A stretch of 63,327 nt of DNA, filler included, from Kipferlia bialata (lineage: Eukaryota): assembly GCA_003568945.1 (NCBI GenBank). It is 8 parts of 8 records of this genome, joined end to end, with 100 filler letters (N's around TTAATTAATTAA, not from the genome) between each part and the next. Parts side by side here need not be neighbours in the genome. Positions count along the whole stretch, not along the records: positions 1 to 11,110 come from BDIP01001289.1; 7 more parts are not named here. The stretch is one strand, 5' to 3'. Position numbers and translations under genes: made by a program. Shown here in pieces: positions 60-49,302 of the stretch. Position 1 is the stretch's first letter, and each line of letters begins with the position of its first letter. The notes under the pieces are model-generated. The model was not told the origin of the DNA, searched no databases, and saw only the letters and a list, made by a program, of their open reading frames with translations.

Positions 60-3000
60 GGAGGTGCAGTTACAGAGGCTTGCAACCCCTACACTGCCTC
101 TGATGAGGCCTGCTCTGACATCTGTGACAGTGGGGAGGCACCTGCTTATAGGTAGGCCTATATAGTATAATCTATATAGTATATTATTCGTATATGTATA
201 TATATTGCCACAGACGAGACCTGCTCTGATACGTGTGACAGTGGGGCGGCACCAGCCTATTGGTATATAGGCTATATACAATATATTCCGTATATTGTAA
301 TTATGGGTATATGATGCGTATATATATGAGGTCTGTGCAGACAACTGTACAGTGGGGAGGTACCTGCATACAGGCATGCTAGATCTACACATACATTTGT
401 ATATAAAGAGTGTGAATATAATACCGTGCATATTATGATACAAATACATACTCTTTTGTATAATACAAGTGTTGAAAAGGACTCTCTCACCTCTAGATAC
501 CCAGCTCAGACCGGTGCGTATGAATACCTCATGCGGGGCACATACTCTCCAGACCTCTCAGACGCTGAAGAATGGAGGTAAAATGCCTAATTATATGCTT
601 CATGTGGGAATCGAACTCGCAACCTTGACAGTGCTAACAGAGCAGGGATATTGTTAAGGCAGAGGTCTATGGAGGCACACCAGTGGGAGTCTCGATATAC
701 TCCAACTTCTCTGGGACCAGTCCAGGTACCAATCCCTCTCTCTCTCTCTCTCTGACCAGAGATACTGTTATACAAGTGTCTCTCTGACCATGTTTTGGTT
801 GTAGTACTATCCTCTCTCTCTCTCTCTCTGATTATCAGGAAGTGTACCTATCTATAAAGTGATAGACACCTCCTATTCCACTGACCATGCTGTATTTCTT
901 CTTCTCTCTCTCTCTCTCTCTCTCATTTTCAGGGTCTACCCCCCTCTATAAGGTTGTGGATACGTCCTATTCCACTGACCATGCTGTTGTTGTGGTCGGG
1001 TGGGGGGAGGCATACTGTGCTGAGACGGGACAGACAGAGGTATATGTATGTACCTATGTATATATATTCAGAGAGGGGGAGGGAGAGAGATGGGGAGGTA
1101 TACTGTGCTGAGACAGGACAGAATGATGTACATGTATTGATTGTGAGAGAGTAACACACAGCTCTCAGACATGCTAGAATAGAGCATATCCTATCAGGTG
1201 AACCTATATATATGTGTGTATGTGTGCATTTTTCCTATATCTCCGTCTTGTGCACTATTATCCTCCCCCTATCTGAGGTCCTCTTTCATAATTCTCCTGA
1301 TTCTGCCTGCCCTTATCCCCAGATATACTGGGCTGCCAGTTATCACACCTTCTCTCTCCGCTTAGCCCGCTAATTCTCTATCTGGCCCATTAGCTCTCTA
1401 CCTATATAACACCTCATTCCCAGATATACTGGGAGGTGACCAGCTTTCACAGCTTATATTATTCATTTTTCAGTATTATTTATATTATTCATTATTAATT
1501 CCCAGATATACTGGGAGGTTGCAAACTCCTGGGGCAACTGGGGTGACGATGGCGGATACTTCAAGATATTCGATGGGTATGTTGGAGTGTCTCCCTAAGC
1601 ATATTTTCTTCTCCCTCTCTCTCTATATATATGTATACATGCGAATCTACCTTACCCTAGGAGTCTCAACTTCTTCTCTTCACCCTCCCTGCTCAGTCTC
1701 TCTCTCTCTGTCCTTACCCTAGGGGTCTAAACTCCTAGTGTTTCTCTCTCTCTCCCTCTCTCTCTTCTTACCCTAGGAGTCTCAACTTCCTCTCCTGGCC
1801 CTCCCTCCTCAGTGTGACATACCCAGTGCCAAGGGAGATTGAGGTATGTACACACACACACATATTTATATAGTATATGTAGTATGTTATACAATTATAG
1901 TATGTGTATTATTCCATCCTCAGTGACATACCCAGTGCCAAGGGACATTGAGGTTAGAATACTGAAATGGTGTATGGTGTATAAATGTATGGGTATCGTT
2001 ATCGCAAAGCGCCATTGGTGTTCAATCACTCCAGGTTGAGTCCAGCGTGTTTGGACTACTCCTCTTTCTCTCTTTCCTCTAATACTCCATTGTGGACCTT
2101 CTCTGAAAACCTAGGTTGAGTCCTCCAATGTGTTTGGACCTGTCCTAACAAGTGGAGCCCTGCTTCTAGGTAGCCTCTCTCTTCCTCTTCCTCTCTCTCT
2201 CTCACTTATCACAAGACGTTACTGCCTCTACCGGCCACTCTGTCACCCTCACCAGTGTCTTTCTCTCTCTACATGTATAGAATTATTGAGCTCTAACAAC
2301 AGACGTTACTGCCTCTGCTGGTCATTCTGTCACCCTGACTGGTGGCCCCTGGTCTGATGACAGCACACTGTCCTTTGGTGGAGAAGTAATATCATCGGTA
2401 CGGTATATACGTATACACACACACATACACAAGTATATAGTCTAGTGTACCTATGTTATTGGTTTAATATATGATGAGAGCACCCTGTCCTTTGGGAGGG
2501 AGGTCATATCATCGGTACGTACATATTTGTACATCATTGCTAATATCAAGAGTACGAATTGTAAGTAGGTATGTGATCCTTTGGATGAGAGATCATGGCA
2601 GCGGTACGACGGTCGCTATTGAATTGTTCCAGCTAGAGTCTATCTAATTGCTCTCACACAGACACTCTCTCTCTCTCTTTACCCTCACCCCAGGTCACCC
2701 TGTCTCTATCTCCCTTCCTGCCTCTCTCACACACACACTCTCTCTTCCTACCTCTCACCCCAGGTCACCTCCCGCACCAAGGACACCATCACATTCGGAA
2801 TCATCACTAGTAAGGTATGAGTATATATATATGATATGTATATATATATATATGGGTATTCATATGATATCTATGTCTGTATTGATGGAAGCAAGGACAC
2901 CATCACATTCAGAATTATTACCAGCAAGGTTAGACTAGAATTGTATGTTTATGTGTATCATTTACATATATATGTACCTGCATGATGTTTGTGTAGGTAT

Positions 3001-6000
3001 GGATCCAATGATCATCGCATTCAGGATCACCAGTAGAAAGGTTAGTAGGTTATGTGTATGTGAATCCACCCATAAAGCTGCCATATATACTCATTGTCAG
3101 GTCACCTCTATGCAGAGTAGCGTAGAGTCACAAAGCCAGAACTGTATAATACAATGATATCTATTAATTTATGTATATTGTATATATTCTCATATTATAG
3201 CTGTATATACTTTCTCACATCTAGGTCACCTCTATGCAGACCAGTGTGGAGGCACAGAGCCAGNCTTTCTCACATCTAGGTCACCTCTATGCAGACCAGT
3301 GTGGAGGCACAGAGCCAGAACTTGACACTATCGGTGGAGGGTACGTTGCATATGTCACCAGTGTGGAATCTCTCTCTCTCTTCGTGTCAAGGTGTGTTGG
3401 TGACCTATCGGTCTCTTCACTCCACAATTCATAATATTATGACAGTCTGCTTGGCTCCCTCTCTCTCACTGTAGGCTATGAGACTGATATCCTACTGGTC
3501 TCATCCGATGTACCTGTGGATGCATCGACAACTCTCTCCCCACTGGCTGTGGTGGCAGGTATGTTGTATATACATATACTGTATATATATTATGTATAAT
3601 TGCCATGCTAATGCATATATATATATGTACCGGTAGACTCATCCACCACACTGTCCCCACTGGCTGTAGTGGCAGGTATGTATAGGATGTACTTGTGCGT
3701 ATATACGTGTATATATATGTAGGTTTAGTTTCTATGCATATATATATACATATATATGTACCAGAAGATGCATTGACAACATTATCACCACTGGCTGTGG
3801 TAGCGGGTATGTAGTGTATATGACATATACATGTTTACAGTTAGCATGCCTTTGATATATAATGCCACACTGTAATAATATATATCTGGGTGTGTAAATA
3901 TCCGGCTTATCGCAGGTGTCGCCACCACCTTCACTGTTGTCGCTCAGGATACCTATGGGAACACTGTCACCAGTGGGACAGTGGACTGTATAGCCAGTTG
4001 GGACTCAGGTACAGTGTATACATTTATATATATACTATATATGTATGGGATGCAGGTACAGTGTATACATATAGTATACTATGTACATATATTAATACAT
4101 ATAGCCTAGCACATTTTTAGTATATAGTTACACTGCCACCAGTGGCACAGTGGACTGTATAGCTAGTTGGAATGCAGGTACTTATGTAGTTCCTCCTTCA
4201 CCTACAGTGCCGTAGCGTGTATATAGTCCATTCTGCATTGGTCTCTTTTATGTATCTCTAGTCATAGATAGTACCTGATTCCAGGCTTTTCCGACCCTGT
4301 CTCCTTCCCCTACAGTGCCACAGCTGGTGGGTTCTCTGGTGTCATGACACCAGATACCACGGCTGGGGGTGTTACTATGTACATAAGGTTTGCCAAAAGT
4401 GTTTATATATTGAGCACTATAGAGCAACTAACGTTTCAGGTTCTACGATGCAGGAACCACAGATACTGCTGCATCCTTCTCCCGTGCCATCATATACATA
4501 TCATTATGCATATATGTATATATATATACAATGTATGTTATACATAGTTATGTAGATATCTATTCACTAACTTGTCAGATTCTACGACGCCGGAACCACC
4601 GATACCATAGCCACCATCTCCCGTGCCATCACCCTGGGGTCAGGCCTGCCAGATGACAGCAACACAACTCTGACACCTCTAGCTGCCACTACTGGTACGT
4701 ACATACACCTACTATACTATATATGTGTGTATACTATATATACTATATATACTATATATGTGTGTATATATGTATATGTATACACATATACATATATGTA
4801 TGCCTGCCAGATGACAGCAACACCACACTGACGCCTCTAGCTGCTACAACGGGTACGTTCAACTATATGTATGTATATACATTATATACATAGCAACACA
4901 ACTCTGACCCCATTAGCTGCCACAACAGGTTCGTGCATATGCGTTCCTATTCTACTCTACAGTACTATACCATACTATATATTCAATGTAGTATATATAT
5001 CATGATTCTCATTGTTGCTTACCCACCAGGAGTAGCCACCACCTTCACTGTAGTGGCCGCAGACGTGAATGGAAACACAGTCAGGTATTGGAGTACTAAT
5101 GAGAACTCACCCTCCCACTCTATTACTCTCTCTCTCTTCACGAAGTGTACCCGTGTACTATCTATAACTATGTATGTATATGTGTATGCTCTTTATACTC
5201 ACGACCAGCTCCGGTTCTGCTCAGTGCGTCCTGAGCCTGGACTCCTCACTCGCTTCCCCCACCGCCCTAAGCTACGCGGTTGGTGTTGGGTACTCCGGTA
5301 CCTTCCTCGCTGGCTCCACCCCTGGTCCAGTGACTGTGTACATGGGCTTCAGTGACCTCAGCAGCAACCATCTAGTCACCTTGTCCCGTACAGTCTATGT
5401 CACAGACATCCCACCTGCCGGTGCCTCTCTCTCACCTACCTCTGCTGTAGCTGGGGAGTCCACGCTATTCTCCGTCACCGCCTTAGACAGCGAGAGTGCT
5501 CCTATCACCTCGAACCTTGCCTGCGAGATTAGTGCCTTCTCTGACTTCACTACCTACACCTCTCTCTCCCTCGCTAGCGGAGAGACAGCCTTTACGGGTA
5601 GCATGGACGCCCCCACCTCTGCGGGATCTGCAACTGTGTACATACGCTTCATCAGCACCTACTCCAACACTGTGGTGGGTACATTCTCCGATACCATCAG
5701 TGTATCTCCTGCTGCCCCAGACGCTACTAGCACCACTCTCTCTCCCATAGAGGCTGTGGCTGGAGAGAGTGTGACATGGACGGTGACAAGCACAGACACC
5801 TACGGCAACACGATCACTGGAGACTACTCCCTGGAGCTCAGCACGTTCAGCGCTTTCACTACATCGAGTACCATGTCCTATAGTGCTGGCACTGGGTTCT
5901 CTGGTAGTATGAGTGCACCTACAATGTCGGGGTCTCAGTTAGTCTATGGACGCTTCACTGCCAATGGGTCATTTGATGTCCTGACATCATTCCAGCAGGC

Positions 6001-9000
6001 AGTCACAGTGTCGCCAGGTACATTATCTCTCTCTCTCCCTATATAGGCCCACGTTTCTTTTACCACCACCTTGTTACCTCTGTCCAGTAGTGTGTGACAG
6101 TATCCATACATATGCACTACAGTATCTCCTCGTTTCTCTACATTGACTCAAGGCGATCCAGTTGCCTCTTCGACCACTCTATCCCCCCTTGTAGGAGTTG
6201 CTGGGACGTCCACACATTTCACTGTGACAAGTAGTGACACGCACGGTAACACGATCACTGCAGGTGTGGACTGCAGCCTCTCCCTCAGTCCCACCTTTGC
6301 CTCTGGTGTATCCTCTGTCTCCTACACCTCGGGTGTCGGATATGTAGGGGACCTTGCCCTTGGCAGCACTTATGGTGCCCAGACAGTCTATGGGCGCTTC
6401 ACAGAGACAGGGACTAGTACCCTGGTAGCGTCCTTCTCTGATGTAGTGGCTGCTGTTGCTGATATCCCTGTCGTCAGCAGTACCACCCTGACACCTACCC
6501 TGGCTGTGGCAGGTGCATCTACGGAGTTCACCGTGACAAGTCGTGACAGTCACGGCAACGCGGTCAGTGACACCACTGTGACATGTGAGATTAGCAGTGA
6601 CGCCGCCTTCACTAGTGTCGTTGCCCTGTCCTATACTACAGGGACAGGCTTTGTGGGGTCTCTTACCGTTAGGACTCTAGCCGGGTCTCAGAGTATCTAT
6701 GGACGCTTCAAGGATCTCTCGACTGGCAACGTGCTAATCACATTCTCGGAGTCCGTTATAGTACAGCCTGCTGCCCCGGATCCGACTCGCACCACTCTCT
6801 CCCCCCTCTCTCTGGTGGCTGGTGTGTCTACTCTGTTCAGTGTGACAAGCAAGGATCAGTATGGCAACACTGTTAGCACCACTGTAGATTGCTCCCTTAG
6901 CGCTGATTCATCGTTTACCAGCTCCGGCGCTCTCTCTCTCTCTGGTACCACCTTCTCTGGTAGTGCTGATGCACCTACCACTGCTGGTACACAGACAATG
7001 TATGGTCGCTTTACAACACCTGCCACTAGCACTGTGGTAACATCCTTCTCTGTAGGTGTTACTGTCTCTGCCAGTGACCCTGTGGCTGCTAGTACTACTC
7101 TATCCCCCACAGAGATGGTGGCTGGGGAGGACACTCTCTTCACAGTGACAAGTACTGATGCCTATGGTAACACAATTGTGGGTGGAGTGGATTGTGAGAT
7201 TACCACATACTCCTTCTCCAACCAGAGTGTATTGCCATATACACACTCTCTCCCTGGGTTCTCAGGGTCCATGGTTGCCAACACACTGGCTGGAAATCAG
7301 AAGGTGTGTATTCATAGCAGTAGTTGTATAATTTGTGCTGAAATGATACTCCCATCACTCTTTGTAAGCTATTATGACACTAACACTAGATATATGGGAA
7401 GTTCTATGAGTGTGGCACCACCACCATCATCACAGCCTTCGATATATCCGTCAAGGTCCTGCCTGCCGCCCCTGTCGCCTCTGGAGTCTCTCTCTCTCCC
7501 TCGGTAGTACCTGCTAGTGACTCTACTGAGTTCACTGTCACCGCCTCTGATCAGTATGGCAACATAGTATCCACTACTGCATCCTGTGGGGCTGGTCCCT
7601 CTTTCACGGAGCTAGAGACGTTCTCCTATGGTGCTGGTTTGGGTTATGTAGGCAGTGTCTCTGGCTACACGGTAGCTGGGGCTCAGTCTCTGGCAGTCAA
7701 GTTCAGTGATGCCGGTACGTCTCTCTCTTTCTCTCTGTGTGTGTCTATTCCCCTCTTCTTCATCCCTCTTCGCATCTACTCACCCTAGTCACTGAGGCAC
7801 GTGTTAGAGCCATCCCTCCTCTCTCTCACTCTCTCTCTCTCTCTATTGACCCTCTATATATTCATTCGTATACTCACTCCAGTCACGGAGACCACCCTAC
7901 TAGAGCTCTCCCTCCCCTTCACTGTCGTCCCCTCCACCCCCATAAAGTCCTCTATCAGCCTGGTACCCGATCAGATGTGCATATGTGCCGGCGCCACTCT
8001 AACAGTATCCGGCACTGACATGTATGGAAACAGCGCGCTATCTGAGAGTGCAGAGTGTACCCTCAGCACTGCATCAGACTTTTCCTCCACAGCGACGTCT
8101 GTCTCTCTCTCTCCTGTCTCTGGGGCAGGGTTCACGGGCATGTTCACACATGACACCGCTGGTGATCTGACTGTGTTTGGCCGGTTCACATCACCTGGGT
8201 CTAGTGAAGTGCTCTTGTCGTTCTCTCGCGAACTGAGTGTGTTAAGCAGCGTACCTTGTACCGAGAACAGTAGCCTCTCTCTACCCACGGGCTCAGTGGT
8301 AGCCGGAGAAGCATTTGAGGTGGGTGTACTTGTATGTAAGTTCTTGTTCAATTCTCATGTATCGTGAATATGTATGTTGTAGAGTATCTCACTGTAGGTG
8401 TCTGTCAGTACGTGTGATGAGTGTGGTAACACTCTCAATCCTCAGAGGTCCGATGCATTGGTATCACTGTACATCAATGACACACTCTCCAGCACGACCT
8501 ACGATACAACTGCAATTGCGTACACTGTCAGTGCAACGCGGTATACTGCCGGTGACTACAGTGTGTCTGCAGTGTATGAGGAGGGTACTGAGGGCGAGGT
8601 GACCTTCCTGAGTGGGTACTCAATCTCTGTGGGGCCTGCTGCTGCCGATGCTGGTCTGAGTGTACTAGACACACCAGCAGAGCTAGAGGCCAAGACGGAT
8701 GTCACACTGACAGTCAGTCTCAAGGTACGACACCTATATATAGATACTAAAGGATTGTCTGGTAATATGTTCATGTATGTATGTGTATATCCCCTTTTTC
8801 CTTTCTTTTACCGTGAATAGTATATAGATTAATCCCTTTTTACCATCTCACCCCAGGACGCCTATTCCAACACAATCTCTGAGTCAGTGGTGGTTGTGGG
8901 TCTTGAGGATGTTTACTATAGCCTCGTGTTTGATACCACGTCAGGGTTATACTCTACCACAGTGACCCTCCCATCTGCCGGGGTTCACTCAGTGTCAGTA

Positions 9001-9468
9001 CTTGTGGATAATGTCCACCTGATGTCTGAGTCTATCACTGTAGAGGGTGGAGTGCCAATAGTCGGTATAGCCCTGGTGATAGCTGCTGGCGTGGTTGTGA
9101 TAGGAGGCACAGGTGCTGCAGTGCACTTCCTCCGCAAGCCTTCCAAGGAGGTTCCTGATGTCAAGGTTAGCGAGGACACCCCACCTGGTGAATGTGGAGA
9201 GGGAGAGGGTGAGGGAGATATGGAAGAACCTGATGTTATAGAGGAGGGTGCGGTACATATACCCTGTGAAGAGGTTCCCCTAGACGTCGAGGCGGTAGAT
9301 GTGGTGCTAGACTGTGCTCCTGTTGGAGGTAATGCAGTGTTGGTGGAGCCTATGCCTCTACCTGTACCAGAGGCGACTCAGCTATCGGCATCTGGTAATG
9401 CTATAGTGAGTACGGGAGACGGGAGTGGGAGTCTCTTTGCCCCATATATCCCGGGGGGTGCTAGATAG
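60..9468 (+). CDS. 5'-partial, multi-exon type I membrane protein: papain-family (C1A) cysteine protease domain, IPT-like segment, about 10 tandem ~103-aa Ig-like (filamin/invasin-type) repeats, TM helix and acidic tail
   Basis: Spliced exons 60-151 (GGAVTEACNPY), 497-577, ~646-725 (IVKAEVYGGTPVGV), 933-1039 (DHAVVVVGWG, catalytic His motif), 1506-1576 (YWEVANSWGNWGDDGGYFKI, catalytic Asn motif) and 1777-1843 join in phase. Downstream exons repeat TTLSPxxxVAGxxxxFTVTSxDxYGN. Hydrophobic VPIVGIALVIAAGVVVIGGTGAAVHFL followed by RKPSK at ~9050-9150; stop at 9466-9468. The catalytic Cys region is upstream of the window. Confidence 0.85.
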
Positions 9469-9862
9469 GATTGATGTAGCACATTGAATCGTCATCAAAG
9501 TCTTACTAGCGGATGTGTCATTGATGTATCCATATTATTAACAACTTGCTTTTCTAGTTCACCAATATATGAACGTGGTACAGATGTAATCTTTTTGCTT
9601 GCTGTTTGTCGTATTATCAGTCCAATAGTTCGAAATTGGAATTGTGTAGTCAAATTCAAGAGAACACTGATATATAGAGGTTCATATACCATTTGAAATT
9701 GTGAGACAGTCACTCTGCCAGCTTGAGTCAAAGCCGTCCTCTCCCTCCTTTATACAAGAATCTCCAATCAGATACTTAGTGTCTGATGTGAGTATCACAT
9801 TATCCCTCCATCTGTATCTACTCCACTTCACACTCTGCGCATCATCTCTCCTCAGAGGGGAC

Positions 9863-11110
9863 TTAGTCCTCCCCAATCTCTCTCTCCTCATCTCCCTGTA
9901 TCTCACCGAGTAGGGCTGGTCCCTCACTGCATACCACCATGTGGGTGGGGGAGATCAAGCATGCAGAGCCATTTCCTAGCGAGTGAGATCCAAAGTACAA
10001 AGACCTGATACTCATACTGATACTGATACAAGTTGTATCATATAACCATGTGGGTAGGGGAGATGAGACAGACACTGCCATTACCTAACAGGTCACAGGA
10101 ACAACTCCACACATCACAATGCAATATTTCACAAAGTCGACGAGGGCTGATTATCACTATGTGTAACACATAGTATGTGTTTCTATACCTAGGGAGTGGG
10201 GTAAGCTGTCACTGGCTGTCCACTCATGTGTCTGTGTGTTGTATACATGCACCTACAAGTTAGATGATGAGTGTTATAGAGATATTGACTCTAGTAGTGA
10301 AGCTAACACTTGTGCTATAGTGATACACTGTTAATATGGTCTGAGCCATAGACTCTAAGGAATCAGCCGTACCCTAACTACCAAATATCAATACACTTAC
10401 CTTCTCCCTCTGTGGTCCACCACCTAATAGGTAGATCTCAGGGCCCACCGCCACAGACGCTGCTCCTCGGACCTACTCATGAGAGTAATTACAACAACAC
10501 TACGTTATAGGACTTTGATTCAAATGAAAAGGGGTATACCTTAAACTGTAGACGTGTGACGTTCCGCCACCCTGTCTCTAGGGAGTAGGATATGTGGAGT
10601 CTGGAATTAGATCGTTGCCCTGTAACAACCAGACTCTCTATCCATAGTATAACATGTGTACCTTGGGTTCCCTCTGGCTAAGTCCCCCATGACAATGTCA
10701 TGATGACATAGATCAACATATATATACAGAGTATGAATATATACTGTATACACTCTATACGTGTGATACACTCTCTGTTAGTTATATTCACATACTTTGG
10801 GTTCCCTCTGGCTAAGTCCCCTATGACATGGACAGTGTCACCAACGACAGCAGCAGAGGACCTGGTTGTATTAGTATTATGGTTAGTACACTCTTTACAT
10901 ACTTGTAATAACTACTGTACCCGACAAAATCCACTGAAGGTGCCACCCCCTGTGTCCATAAGTTATGGAGTACATAGAGGCTACATCATATAGTTACATT
11001 AGTTTAGTGTCAGTTAGAGTAATGTCCAATATATAGTCACCATGCAAATGCCACCGGTGGTGCCACCCCCTGTGTCCAAAAATAACTATATGTATCAATA
11101 CAATTACATA
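9863..11110 (-). CDS. Kelch-repeat protein, 3' part (5' end lost at the contig edge)
   Basis: Minus-strand exons give kelch motifs SAAVVGDTVHVIG (~10798-10860), VRGAASVAVGPEIYLLGG (~10401-10470) and VHVYNTQTHEW (~10189-10251). The last exon ends at a stop at 9863. Some exon phases are unresolved. Confidence 0.6.
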
Positions 11111-11210
11111 NNNNNNNNNNNNNNNNNNNNNNNNNNNNNNNNNNNNNNNNNNNNTTAATTAATTAANNNNNNNNNNNNNNNNNNNNNNNNNNNNNNNNNN
11201 NNNNNNNNNN
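11111..11210. other. Artificial contig-joining spacer (44N-TTAATTAATTAA-44N); identical spacers at 15224-15323, 26430-26529, 37636-37735, 48839-48938, 55256-55355 and 60091-60190
   Basis: Identical 100-nt design each time; the core gives stop codons in all six frames. Genes are truncated on both sides. Confidence 0.98.
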
Positions 11211-26395: not shown

Positions 26396-26541
26396 GTTAG
26401 TATATACACACACATATATATGTATATATNNNNNNNNNNNNNNNNNNNNNNNNNNNNNNNNNNNNNNNNNNNNTTAATTAATTAANNNNNNNNNNNNNNN
26501 NNNNNNNNNNNNNNNNNNNNNNNNNNNNNACTCACTCCCAG

Positions 26542-29753: not shown

Positions 29754-30023
29754 GATGGAAAGACTCACACCGCGGCAGGTGTGCGAGACACTTAGATTTG
29801 ACTGCTTCATAGCAGAGGTGCTGGTTTGCACAAAGTATTGTATAATAATAGATATGTAGTCACAGTCCAAGAAGCCCAAACCCAATAATTGGTTAAGTAT
29901 TTATGCATACGCTATTAGGACAAGGGAACAGGACATGGCTCCACCACTCAGTCCCCCTCGGAACAGGAGGGAAGACACCGGGAGACCACTGGAGATTGAC
30001 TAGAACAAAGGGGGAGAGGGTGA

Positions 30024-31058
30024 TTACTCGCTCTTCTTGCTCTTCTTGGACTTCTTCTTCTCCTTCTTCTCCTTCTTCTCCTTCTTCTCCTTCTTGACTG
30101 GGGGTTAGAGAGAGTGAAACAGAGTATTAGAGAGAGAGTATGCGTACCGCGCTTGGCCTCCTTCTCTGGGGCCTCGGCTCCCTCCTCAGTCTCAACCTCT
30201 CTGGAGCGCTTCTTCTTCTTCTTCTTCTTCTCTCCGTCCTGGGGTTAGATCCAAAAGAGACAAGTGTGGCACGTAGAGTGTATGTAAAAGTAGGCGTGTT
30301 GTGATGCATACCTCGGACTTGTCCTTCTTGCTCTTCTTGGACTTCTTCTTGGACTTCTTCTCTGGGGGTGAGGGGGTATACACGAAATACATAGACTATA
30401 TGTAGAGAGAGACATGGACGTACCCTCGCCCTCCTCGATCACGGTCTCCTCAACCACAGTCTCCTCAACCACAGTCTCCTCAGCCTCCATGGCAACGTCC
30501 TCACCGGCAAAGTACTTGCCCTCGCGGGTCACCTGGTTCTGCTCGTTGTAGGCCTGGGGGTGAGGAATGGAAATATGGTACCATACTCGAAAGAGAGAGA
30601 GAGAGAGAGAGTGATGTGCGTACCGTGATGTTGTGGTCGATGGAAGACCTGATCTCCCTGGCCACAGTGTTGCCCTCGAGCTCCCTCACCCTCTTCTCGA
30701 GCTTGGTGGCAACGTCCTCGGCCACAGTGATGCCCTAGCGGGTTAGAGATACATGTACATAGGGTGTGCATGCATATATGTGTATGTATATATATATGTA
30801 GGTACCTTGTCCACGCTGAATGCATCGACACGGGCACAGATGGCAGCACAGGCACCAAGGGCACGGGCAAGCTTACCCTGAAGGTCAGAGACAACACACT
30901 TCGAGAGGGACATAAAGAGACAGAGGTACGACCCTGACTTTACATATGTACCTTGTTGTTGGGTGCGCACTGTCCGAGCATCTTGGCGTGGAAGATGATT
31001 CCATACTTCGGGGTGGGGGCCTTCTCCTGCAGGGCACGGAACAGAGCCTGGGGGTAAG

Positions 31059-31094
<36 letters not shown>

Positions 31095-31559
31095 GAGAGA
31101 GAATGAAGACACGCACCTTCTCGGCTCCGATGATCTGGATGGTGGATCCGGCGTACTTGGCAAGGGTGAGGAGGGAGCCGGCGTGGCCGATGAGACGGGC
31201 GGTCACGACCTAGGGGTGAGTATATATGTATATATATAGTATATACATATGTACATACATACACACACCTCTCCGATGATGGCTGCCAGGTTGGGTGACA
31301 CAGCCCTGACCCTGTTGAGGAGGTACTCGTGGAGGTCAGCGTGTGCAGAGCCAAGGGCCAGCACCTGCTCGGCAACCTCACCGATACTGGGGGGTCAGAC
31401 GGGTGTAATAGATAGAGACATAGATAGATAGATACCAGGGTCAGAGGGGTGTAATAGATATATATAGAAGTATATTGTGTGTGTGTGTGAAGGTACATAC
31501 CGGGCCATATCCTCCTCAGTGATAGCGGCACCGATGGAGGCGTTTCCAGACTCGCAGAC
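30024..31559 (-). CDS. NOP58: Nucleolar box C/D snoRNP protein Nop58 (Nop56/58 family), 3' part; 5' part lies in the N gap
   Basis: Nop domain [63 protein letters not shown], GQxxPxxKGK and [11 protein letters not shown] favour Nop58 over Nop56; [11 protein letters not shown] tail; stop at 30024-30026. Confidence 0.85.
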
Positions 31560-32551
31560 CTATGCGTGAGAGAATGAACCATGAAGGAGTAGAGAGAGAG
31601 AGGGTAGTGTCGGAGAGAGGGTAGTGTCGGAGAGTGGAGGGTGTGTGTGTGTGGGGGGGGGGGGGGGGGGGGGGTTTTTGGATGTGGGGTNNNNNNNNNN
31701 NNNNNNNNNNNNNNNNNNNNNNNNNNNNNNNNNNNNNNNNNNNNNNNNNNNNNNNNNNNNNNNNNNNNNNNNNNNNNNNNNNNNNNNNNNNNNNNNNNNN
31801 NNNNNNNNNNNNNNNNNNNNNNNNNNNNNNNNNNNNNNNNNNNNNNNNNNNNNNNNNNNNNNNNNNNNNNNNNNNNNNNNNNNNNNNNNNNNNNNNNNNN
31901 NNNNNNNNNNNNNNNNNNNNNNNNNNNNNNNNNNNNNNNNNNNNNNNNNNNNNNNNNNNNNNNNNNNNNNNNNNNNNNNNNNNNNNNNNNNNNNNNNNNN
32001 NNNNNNNNNNNNNNNNNNNNNNNNNNNNNNNNNNNNNNNNNNNNNNNNNNNNNNNNNNNNNNNNNNNNNNNNNNNNNNNNNNNNNNNNNNNNNNNNNNNN
32101 NNNNNNNNNNNNNNNNNNNNNNNNNNNNNNNNNNNNNNNNNNNNNNNNNNNNNNNNNNNNNNNNNNNNNNNNNNNNNNNNNNNNNNNNNNNNNNNNNNNN
32201 NNNNNNNNNNNNNNNNNNNNNNNNNNNNNNNNNNNNNNNNNNNNNNNNNNNNNNNNNNNNNNNNNNNNNNNNNNNNNNNNNNNNNNNNNNNNNNNNNNNN
32301 NNNNNNNNNNNNNNNNNNNNNNNNNNNNNNNNNNNNNNNNNNNNNNNNNNNNNNNNNNNNNNNNNNNNNNNNNNNNNNNNNNNNNNNNNNNNNNNNNNNN
32401 NNNNNNNNNNNNNNNNNNNNNNNNNNNNNNNNNNNNNNNNNNNNNNNNNNNNNTTTGTTTTGCCCCTTTTCCCCCCCCCCCCCCCCCCCCCCCCCCAACC
32501 TATTTGGTGGTATATCCGTATCCTTTTGTTTCTGCTGTCACTCACGCCCAG

Positions 32552-37621: not shown

Positions 37622-37735
37622 AAAAAATTTATTTTNNNNNNNNNNNNNNNNNNNNNNNNNNNNNNNNNNNNNNNNNNNNTTAATTAATTAANNNNNNNNN
37701 NNNNNNNNNNNNNNNNNNNNNNNNNNNNNNNNNNN

Positions 37736-48838: not shown

Positions 48839-49302
48839 NNNNNNNNNNNNNNNNNNNNNNNNNNNNNNNNNNNNNNNNNNNNTTAATTAATTAANNNNNN
48901 NNNNNNNNNNNNNNNNNNNNNNNNNNNNNNNNNNNNNNAAGAAGAGGGGAAGGGGGGGGGGGGGGGGGGGGGGGGGGGGGTGGACTATTGTGTGTGTCAT
49001 TGGTACGGGTGTTGTAAACAATGTATATTTGGGCTTCCACTTGCGTGTATAGTCAGTAGTCATATATATATATACATTATGTAGGAAAGCAATTAGTCAA
49101 CTTGCCGAATTGAGGGAGAGGGGGGGGGGGAGACAATGTATATATGTGTGAGATTCTCATTGTCACTACGACGGTGATCATAAAAGTCATATTCAGCAGA
49201 GGGGAGTGGAGTGAAGGAGAATGACAAAAGGAGTAGAGGGAGAGATATATGAAGCGGGGGGGGGGGGGATGGGCTATCCTGCATAGAGAGAGAGACACTC
49301 AC

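What the first reader, a model, noticed from the sequence alone, without database searches (positions are those of the whole stretch)
4646..4928. Intronic exon-end copies differ from the real exon only at synonymous sites (11 of 11)
Seen: the exon end 4646-4694 (LPDDSNTTLTPLAATT-G|gtacgt) is copied in the intron at 4804-4852 and 4892-4928. Copy 1 has 6 substitutions (aca>acc, act>aca, aca>acg, gcc>gct, act>aca, act>acg). Copy 2 has 5 (aca>acc, cct>cca, cta>tta, act>aca twice). All are silent, although the copies start mid-exon after (TA)n and have no clear branch-point acceptor. Neutral decay would make most changes non-silent. Inference: the copies are recent snapshots of other functional alleles or paralogues, captured by template switching or unequal exchange, or they are periodically swapped into the coding position. 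Introns would then act as an archive of coding variants.
Basis: partly seen in the sequence, partly recalled or inferred. Interest (0 to 1): 0.85.

Follow-up and report, generated by a model that had tools for sequence, protein, structure and literature searches.

The report
Introns storing other alleles' exon edges
In the free-living protist Kipferlia bialata, many introns carry spliced-out partial copies of the neighbouring exon's start or end that differ from the exon mostly at silent positions, likely because they are pieces of other working alleles brought in by recombination, which would let one genome record the diversity of its population.

Summary
Observation confirmed: 11 of 11 differences are silent. 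The DNA is Kipferlia bialata, gene KIPB_005485. The case is one of many: 95 exon-edge copies lie in 46 of 67 introns of five genes picked for their repeats. They are not purely silent: 138 synonymous against 74 non-synonymous changes, pN/pS 0.16 (CI 0.12-0.23), 0 stops. Simulated neutral decay gives 0.80; a purified exon beside a neutral copy gives 0.46. A spliced contig skips all 16 detected copies of introns 1-12. Copies mostly keep GT/AG while their intron flank has diverged, divergence is uniform within a gene, and the Ctf4/Mcl1 gene, with no close paralogue found, shows it too. Best reading (0.55): splice-junction duplicates that are seeded or rewritten from other alleles of a very diverse, recombining population. 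In a toy model swapping with the own exon alone fails (0.57-0.69) and exchange between haplotypes fits (0.10-0.27). No second strain was available, so the allele source is inferred; an archive function is not shown. The scan met a similar junction repeat once in another genome (e1-7810567).

The parts
4579..4694 (+). Exon 14 of KIPB_005485 (116 nt), the functional exon
   Evidence: Model identical to P0001; RNA-type contig 4577-4695 with 0 differences
4802..4858 (+). Donor-type copy 1: last 51 nt of exon 14 plus GT donor; 6 silent differences
4892..4934 (+). Donor-type copy 2: last 37 nt of exon 14 plus GT donor; 5 silent differences
4427..4492 (+). Acceptor-type copy: branch-point/AG region plus first 53 nt of exon 14, in the upstream intron; 10 differences in the aligned exon part, three amino-acid changes
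4695..5029 (+). Intron 14 (335 nt), TA-rich tracts separating the copies; real acceptor at 5029
5030..5084 (+). Exon 15, joined in frame to exon 14 in the annotated protein
60..9468 (+). KIPB_005485 (5' partial): papain-family protease domain, Ig-like/filamin repeats; 19 exon-edge copies in introns 1-14, none detected in introns 15-20
11519..14795 (+). Gene g2, 7 exons, 4 donor-type copies
15818..26395 (+). KIPB_005495, Ctf4/Mcl1-type protein (PF12341), 25 exons modelled, 51 copies, pN/pS 0.20
50530..54815 (-). Gene g4, 12 exons modelled, 13 copies, pN/pS 0.06
60918..63178 (-). Gene g5, 7 exons modelled, 8 copies, pN/pS 0.20

Best explanation
The copies are spliced-out, one-sided duplicates of exon edges whose sequence likely comes from other working alleles, brought in by out-of-register recombination or gene conversion in a population predicted to be very diverse. 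Step 1 (inferred; microhomology shown): repair or replication switches template between a TA/CT-rich intron tract and a few matching bases inside the exon, duplicating a splice site with 14-55 nt of exon. Step 2 (layout shown, cause inferred): only duplicates that leave the reading frame whole survive, so exon-end copies sit downstream, exon-start copies upstream, and no copy covers a whole exon. Step 3 (shown for one transcript): the spliceosome uses the outermost donor and acceptor and skips the copies. Step 4 (inferred): because introns differ too much between alleles to pair, strand exchange falls on exon sequence, so the exon and its copies keep exchanging with exons of other haplotypes; exon and copy then differ as two alleles do, mostly silently, plus some later decay. 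Capture at birth and later rewriting cannot be told apart here; an old hybridisation is a special case of the same reading.
For: pN/pS 0.16, bootstrap CI 0.12-0.23, all five genes 0.06-0.20, 0 stops and 4 gaps in 95 copies; controls through the same pipeline 0.80 and 0.46, minimum 0.35 in 60 runs. 4-fold sites 101 of 522 against 0-fold 61 of 1986, odds ratio 6.4 after stratifying by trinucleotide. Both copies of a pair carry private silent changes: the copy with fewer private changes has 17 silent to 11 not (p 7e-4; one pair per edge 12 to 10, p 0.014). Ortholog-like profile: GT/AG kept in 79 of 90 copies while the next intron bases differ at 35-58%; 12 of 15 copies of 28 nt or more with 0-1 differences have flank scores of 8 or less out of 56, and exon divergence does not track flank similarity (rho -0.04, n 88). 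Divergence is homogeneous within each of four genes tested (p 0.06-0.58) but differs between genes and has no gradient with distance (20 against 17), as for draws from an allele pool. Free ends continue the flanking dinucleotide repeat more than chance (0.73 against 0.39 nt, 0 of 2000 shuffles). Toy model fits only with exchange between haplotypes. Precedents: synonymous diversity 0.20 and exon-biased crossovers in Schizophyllum commune (PMC4576712, PMC4209137, abstracts); metamonads lack NHEJ and fornicates use Dmc1 paralogues in place of Rad51A (PMC8516963, passages).
Against: No second haplotype or strain was seen: the DNA run shows other letters at only 3 places of 60-4721, all from one paralogous protease contig, and two runs of another sample laid nothing. 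Diversity and sex in K. bialata are not documented in anything I read. Required silent divergence reaches 0.36 in KIPB_005485, above the S. commune figure. Copy-derived changes are less skewed (44 silent, 30 not), so real decay is mixed in. 31 of 95 copies are identical to the exon, more than one pooled rate predicts (37 against 21 with no third-position change). The toy model is one run per setting with 400 genomes. The sample is five hand-picked genes in 63 kb.
Confidence: 0.55

Rival explanations
1. The copies are under present selection because they are sometimes used: spliced into minor isoforms, or swapped into the coding position by a programmed DNA or RNA template switch.
For: Low pN/pS, conservative replacements, no stops. 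Acceptor copies score as high as the real acceptor in 23 of 47 cases and 18 of 47 keep a CTNAC branch motif with AG, against 36 of 67 real acceptors.
Against: Each copy has one splice site and covers at most 76% of its exon. AG at the free end of donor copies (15 of 44) and GT at the free end of acceptor copies (17 of 51) are near my rough chance estimate of 0.3. The spliced contig matches the copy-free model at 6 of 6 checked offsets. Donor copies are weaker than real donors (p 0.007) and splice dinucleotides change faster than 0-fold sites. Contigs drop rare isoforms, so minor use is not excluded.
Confidence: 0.12
2. Plain tandem duplication inside one clonal lineage, with silent changes accumulating in the exon and two-way conversion or collapse purging bad copies.
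For: Polarity fits tandem duplication (41 of 41 donor copies upstream of acceptor copies). 31 identical copies. The 9 sites where the exon differs from all its copies are all silent. 7 of 88 copies have clearly homologous flanks.
Against: Predicts pN/pS of about 0.5 or more: 0.46 and 0.57-0.69, outside the CI 0.12-0.23. Predicts an age gradient and matching flank divergence, neither seen.
Confidence: 0.09
3. Assembly artefact: divergent haplotypes of a heterozygous or mixed culture stacked in tandem at microsatellites.
Against: Single contigs of the DNA run span exon end and copies with 0 differences: 60-804 (depth 362), 937-1603 (455), 2866-3112 (433), similar to the 445-530 of most other contigs listed, not half. 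All sampled 31-mers of 3300-9500 are in that run (share 1.00). Junctions join intron tract to mid-exon, which no allele of the same gene would contain. Up to five or six copies per intron in strict order. No second-haplotype exon was listed.
Confidence: 0.07
4. The copies were captured from close paralogous genes elsewhere in the genome.
For: KIPB_005485 is a repeat protein and has at least one paralogue of its protease part (record 2).
Against: No K. bialata paralogue among 6 hits (next best 33% identity or less; only proteins of 673-2000 aa searched). One hit among 4 candidates for an exon of the Ctf4/Mcl1 gene, which holds 51 of the 95 copies. Every copy sits beside its own exon.
Confidence: 0.05

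Closest known systems
Minisatellites whose first unit spans an exon-intron boundary (human F7 intron 7, CBS intron 13, 6-16, LAMIN B2, PDGF; PMC1557585, passages read)
   Same: A splice site with some exon sequence is repeated in the intron and the authentic outer site is normally used.
   Different: Those are a few genes, regular near-identical monomers, described on the donor side. Here both sides, about half of the window, irregular units with mostly unrelated flanks, and a coding-type pattern of differences.
Tandem exon duplication and mutually exclusive exons (PMC9013439, PMC5740500; search listing and abstract start only)
   Same: Exon-like sequence in introns with low pN/pS.
   Different: Those are whole exons with both splice sites that enter mRNA; these are partial, one-sided and absent from the assembled transcript.
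Intron gain by tandem genomic duplication (PMC3443670, passages read)
   Same: Local duplication involving splice signals reshapes introns.
   Different: There an exonic AGGT duplication makes a new intron; here duplications across existing splice sites lengthen old introns (intron length against copy number, rho 0.81).
Exon-confined recombination in hyperdiverse Schizophyllum commune (PMC4209137, PMC4576712; abstracts)
   Same: Supplies the population setting that the best explanation needs: silent diversity near 0.2, exchange limited to conserved exons.
   Different: No intronic exon-edge copies are mentioned in the abstracts; such diversity is not shown for K. bialata.
Silent-cassette gene conversion archives (trypanosome VSG, Borrelia vls, Anaplasma msp2; recalled, no call)
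   Same: Non-expressed partial copies that can exchange with an expressed gene.
   Different: Those store amino-acid variety for surface antigens; these differ mostly silently and occur in a replication gene too.

Membership tests
Exon-junction-spanning minisatellite (F7 intron 7 type) | Splice site plus exon edge reiterated in the adjoining intron | tested here: met
   GT/AG kept in 79 of 90 anchored copies
Exon-junction-spanning minisatellite (F7 intron 7 type) | Outer, authentic site is the one used | tested here: met
   Spliced contig matches the copy-free model over introns 1-12 of KIPB_005485; other genes only by annotation
Exon-junction-spanning minisatellite (F7 intron 7 type) | Regular head-to-tail monomers, near-identical over the intron part | tested here: not met
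   Flank score of 30 or more out of 56 in only 7 of 88 copies
Exon-junction-spanning minisatellite (F7 intron 7 type) | Copy number varies between individuals | not testable with these tools
   No second isolate laid
Mutually exclusive / tandemly duplicated exon | Whole exon with both splice sites | tested here: not met
   Longest copy is 76% of its exon; one splice site each
Mutually exclusive / tandemly duplicated exon | Coding-type constraint | tested here: met
   pN/pS 0.16
Mutually exclusive / tandemly duplicated exon | Included in some mRNA | tested here: inconclusive
   Absent from the one assembled transcript; contigs hide rare isoforms
Silent-cassette conversion archive | Stored variation is mainly amino-acid changing and limited to surface antigens | tested here: not met
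   138 silent to 74 replacement changes; 51 of 95 copies in a Ctf4/Mcl1 gene
Silent-cassette conversion archive | Directional conversion of copy into the expressed site | not testable with these tools
   Needs clones followed over time or several isolates

The most novel reading that the evidence does not exclude
K. bialata recombines between divergent homologues by mismatch-tolerant, microhomology-prone repair, and its introns are a standing bank of other alleles' exon edges that is read back into the exon by conversion, so that a single haploid genome carries and can re-use population variation at thousands of splice junctions.
Probability: 0.2. Interest if true: 0.9.

Novelty: new variant of a known kind. 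Interest (0 to 1): 0.74.

Why it matters
Non-coding DNA with a protein-coding signature at this density is unexpected. If the allele reading holds, one genome yields an estimate of silent diversity (about 0.1-0.35 per gene) and evidence of sex in a free-living relative of Giardia, and it explains how introns grow in the one intron-rich fornicate. Independently of the origin, an organism with a reduced spliceosome (87 of 174 proteins, PMC6679479 passages) ignores up to five upstream acceptor look-alikes, which makes splice-site choice directly testable on natural decoys.

Tried and rejected
No whole genome was held, so no genome-wide count. No RNA holder is on record as RNA; the RNA label of X2 is a guess, though its contig joins exons exactly. 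Runs X3 and X4 laid nothing at 80% likeness: no evidence either way. The metagenome scan found 5 distant relatives (29-39% identity), no other strain. 'Broken exon rescued by an inserted whole exon' predicts that start and end copies meet: 3 of 18 within 3 nt against 3.1 expected, rejected. Context-dependent mutation as the cause: rejected. Wrong frame: shifted frames give 1.8-2.0 with 10-11 stops. Frozen copies with a fast-changing exon: disfavoured by private silent changes in both copies and by diverged flanks. mRNA-derived copies: rejected, they end in GT or start with branch point and AG rather than the next exon. The first microhomology test ignored chance extension and was redone. Pfam scans of five single short exons found nothing. 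Earlier-findings look-ups: nothing in this genome, nothing relevant.

Full report
Observation. The exon end 4646-4694 and its copies at 4804-4852 and 4892-4928 are as described: 6 of 6 and 5 of 5 differences are synonymous, and the 7 differences between the two copies are synonymous too. The chance of 11 of 11 is 2e-6 to 1e-5 under neutral change and 2e-4 to 7e-4 if only the exon is purified, before allowing for post hoc choice and one shared change.

Source and frame. A long exon of the gene matches hypothetical protein KIPB_005485 of Kipferlia bialata at 100%, and my 21-exon model translates to that protein letter for letter. The exon is 4579-4694. An RNA-type contig covers 4577-4695 with no difference; another, 1418 bases long, matches the copy-free model at 6 of 6 checked offsets across exons 1-13, so the 16 detected copies in introns 1-12 are absent from it. 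Contigs cannot show rare isoforms.

Extent. I modelled five genes (67 introns) chosen because one search showed repeats in them, aligned up to 90 nt of each exon edge to its own intron and kept scores of 28 or more (reached by 0.2% of 2010 control comparisons). This gave 95 copies in 46 of 67 introns, 2998 of 19426 intron bases: 44 copies of the upstream exon's end and 51 of the downstream exon's start, 14-55 nt of exon each. All 41 donor/acceptor pairs within an intron have the donor copy first. Copies below the threshold and genes in the other half of the window were not counted; that half has 9 local repeats against 148, so 46 of 67 is not a genome rate. One exon boundary (exon 19 of the first gene) was off by two bases in the stored file; no copy lies there.

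Signal. Over the 95 copies: 138 synonymous and 74 non-synonymous differences, pS 0.211, pN 0.035, ratio 0.16 (0.21 with strong transition weighting), mismatches by codon position 35/29/148, no stop, 4 gaps, 31 identical copies; without the finding 0.17; best copy per edge 0.15; each gene 0.06-0.20. Bootstrap over 46 introns: 0.12-0.23. Through the same pipeline neutral copies give 0.80 and a purified exon with a neutral copy 0.46, never below 0.35 in 60 runs. Sequence context does not explain it (odds ratio 6.4). So the copies themselves carry a coding history: changes private to a copy are 44 silent to 30 not, and even the less changed copy of a pair has 17 to 11.

Anatomy. Copies keep GT or AG in 79 of 90 anchored cases, but the next ten intron bases differ at 35-58% (unrelated introns 61-65%). 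Twelve of 15 long near-identical copies have flanks scoring at the level of unrelated introns, and exon divergence does not track flank similarity. Divergence is homogeneous within four genes tested, differs between genes (third-position rate 0.09-0.27) and does not rise with distance. Free ends continue the neighbouring dinucleotide repeat slightly more than chance. This is the profile of two alleles or orthologues: exon conserved, splice signal conserved, intron changed. A templated insertion that takes only a few intron bases would also give unrelated flanks, so the flank result does not by itself date the copies.

Real or artefact. In the DNA run single contigs span exon end and copies without a difference at 60-804, 937-1603 and 2866-3112 at ordinary depth, and other letters are listed at only 3 places, from one protease paralogue. 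Stacking is unlikely (0.07) but only long reads close it.

Mechanism. Paralogues are poor donors: none close was found for KIPB_005485, and the Ctf4/Mcl1 gene KIPB_005495 (PF12341), with 51 copies, was the only hit for one of its exons; both searches are limited by word sharing and length range. A toy Wright-Fisher model (400 haploids, one run per setting) gave 0.57-0.69 with two-way conversion between exon and copy but no sex, 0.10-0.27 with recombination added, and 0.12-0.14 when copies are rewritten from other haplotypes; pS near 0.2 needed allele diversity near 0.15-0.23, and low diversity gave pS 0.03. I therefore read the copies as junction duplicates, tolerated because the frame is untouched and the outer splice sites win, whose sequence is drawn from an allele pool (0.55). 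Shown: layout, exclusion from one transcript, coding-type differences, flank decoupling. Inferred: template switching, exchange between homologues, high diversity, sex. Background that fits: no NHEJ in metamonads and Dmc1 paralogues in place of Rad51A in fornicates (PMC8516963, passages; that Dmc1 tolerates mismatches is recalled); exon-biased crossovers and silent diversity of 0.20 in Schizophyllum (PMC4209137, PMC4576712, abstracts). Against: no second haplotype seen, pS 0.36 in the first gene is very high, and more identical copies than one pooled rate predicts. Rivals: present use of the copies (0.12), clonal duplication with swapping (0.09), artefact (0.07), paralogues (0.05); the remainder is for causes I have not thought of, such as exon-specific mutation.

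Comparison and novelty. The layout is known from human minisatellites spanning a splice donor (PMC1557585, 10 of 10 passages; lead from earlier finding e1-7810567, whose own case was reported near chance for silent bias and which I did not recheck). These copies fail the regular-monomer feature of that class and the whole-exon feature of mutually exclusive exons. The K. bialata genome paper counts 124,912 introns and, in 12 of 19 passages and section 12, does not mention such copies; the word stem 'duplicat' does not occur in its main text (PMC5874029; supplements not read and may bear on this). PMC6679479 (5 of 5 passages) and PMC3443670 (12 of 16 passages) do not describe it either. Ten library searches (listings only, open-access library) returned no description of partial exon-edge copies with coding-type divergence. 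I rate it a new variant of a known kind, interest 0.74: the signal is strong and odd, the allele source is a prediction that a second isolate would test directly.

Noticed in passing
whole window: Patchiness: 148 exact local repeats of 14 nt or more in the five genes (30.9 kb) against 9 in the other 30.7 kb. Genes with short introns, such as the minus-strand gene near 30000-31560, show almost none. Unexplained.
   Followed up: partly
window 11111-11210, 15224-15323, 26430-26529, 37636-37735, 48839-48938, 55256-55355, 60091-60190: The window is several contigs joined by 100-base spacers (two runs of 44 N around 12 bases); neighbours across a spacer are not linked (first contig 11110 bases as).
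   Followed up: yes
window 3185-3319: Exact acceptor-type duplicate around a single N at 3264; a DNA contig runs from 3319 back to 3185 with 34 other letters, and the 54-base unit has depth 1000, so the assembly likely under-represents this real duplication.
   Followed up: partly
window 20800-21400: Five acceptor-type copies precede exon 14 of the Ctf4/Mcl1 gene; across all genes 23 of 47 acceptor copies score at least as high as the real site, which suggests exon definition or another distal-site rule.
   Followed up: partly
window 60-9468: KIPB_005485 joins a papain-family protease domain to many Ig-like/filamin repeats and a likely C-terminal membrane segment; a paralogue of the protease part is present in both runs of sample S1.
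   Followed up: no
window 9930-11081: Three further repeat pairs (9930/10039, 10659/10793, 10925/11045) look like exon-edge copies of an unmodelled minus-strand gene; not counted.
   Followed up: no
window 21399-21479 and 26315-26395: My Ctf4/Mcl1 model differs from the NCBI protein by two residues at the exon 14/15 join and by most of the last exon.
   Followed up: no
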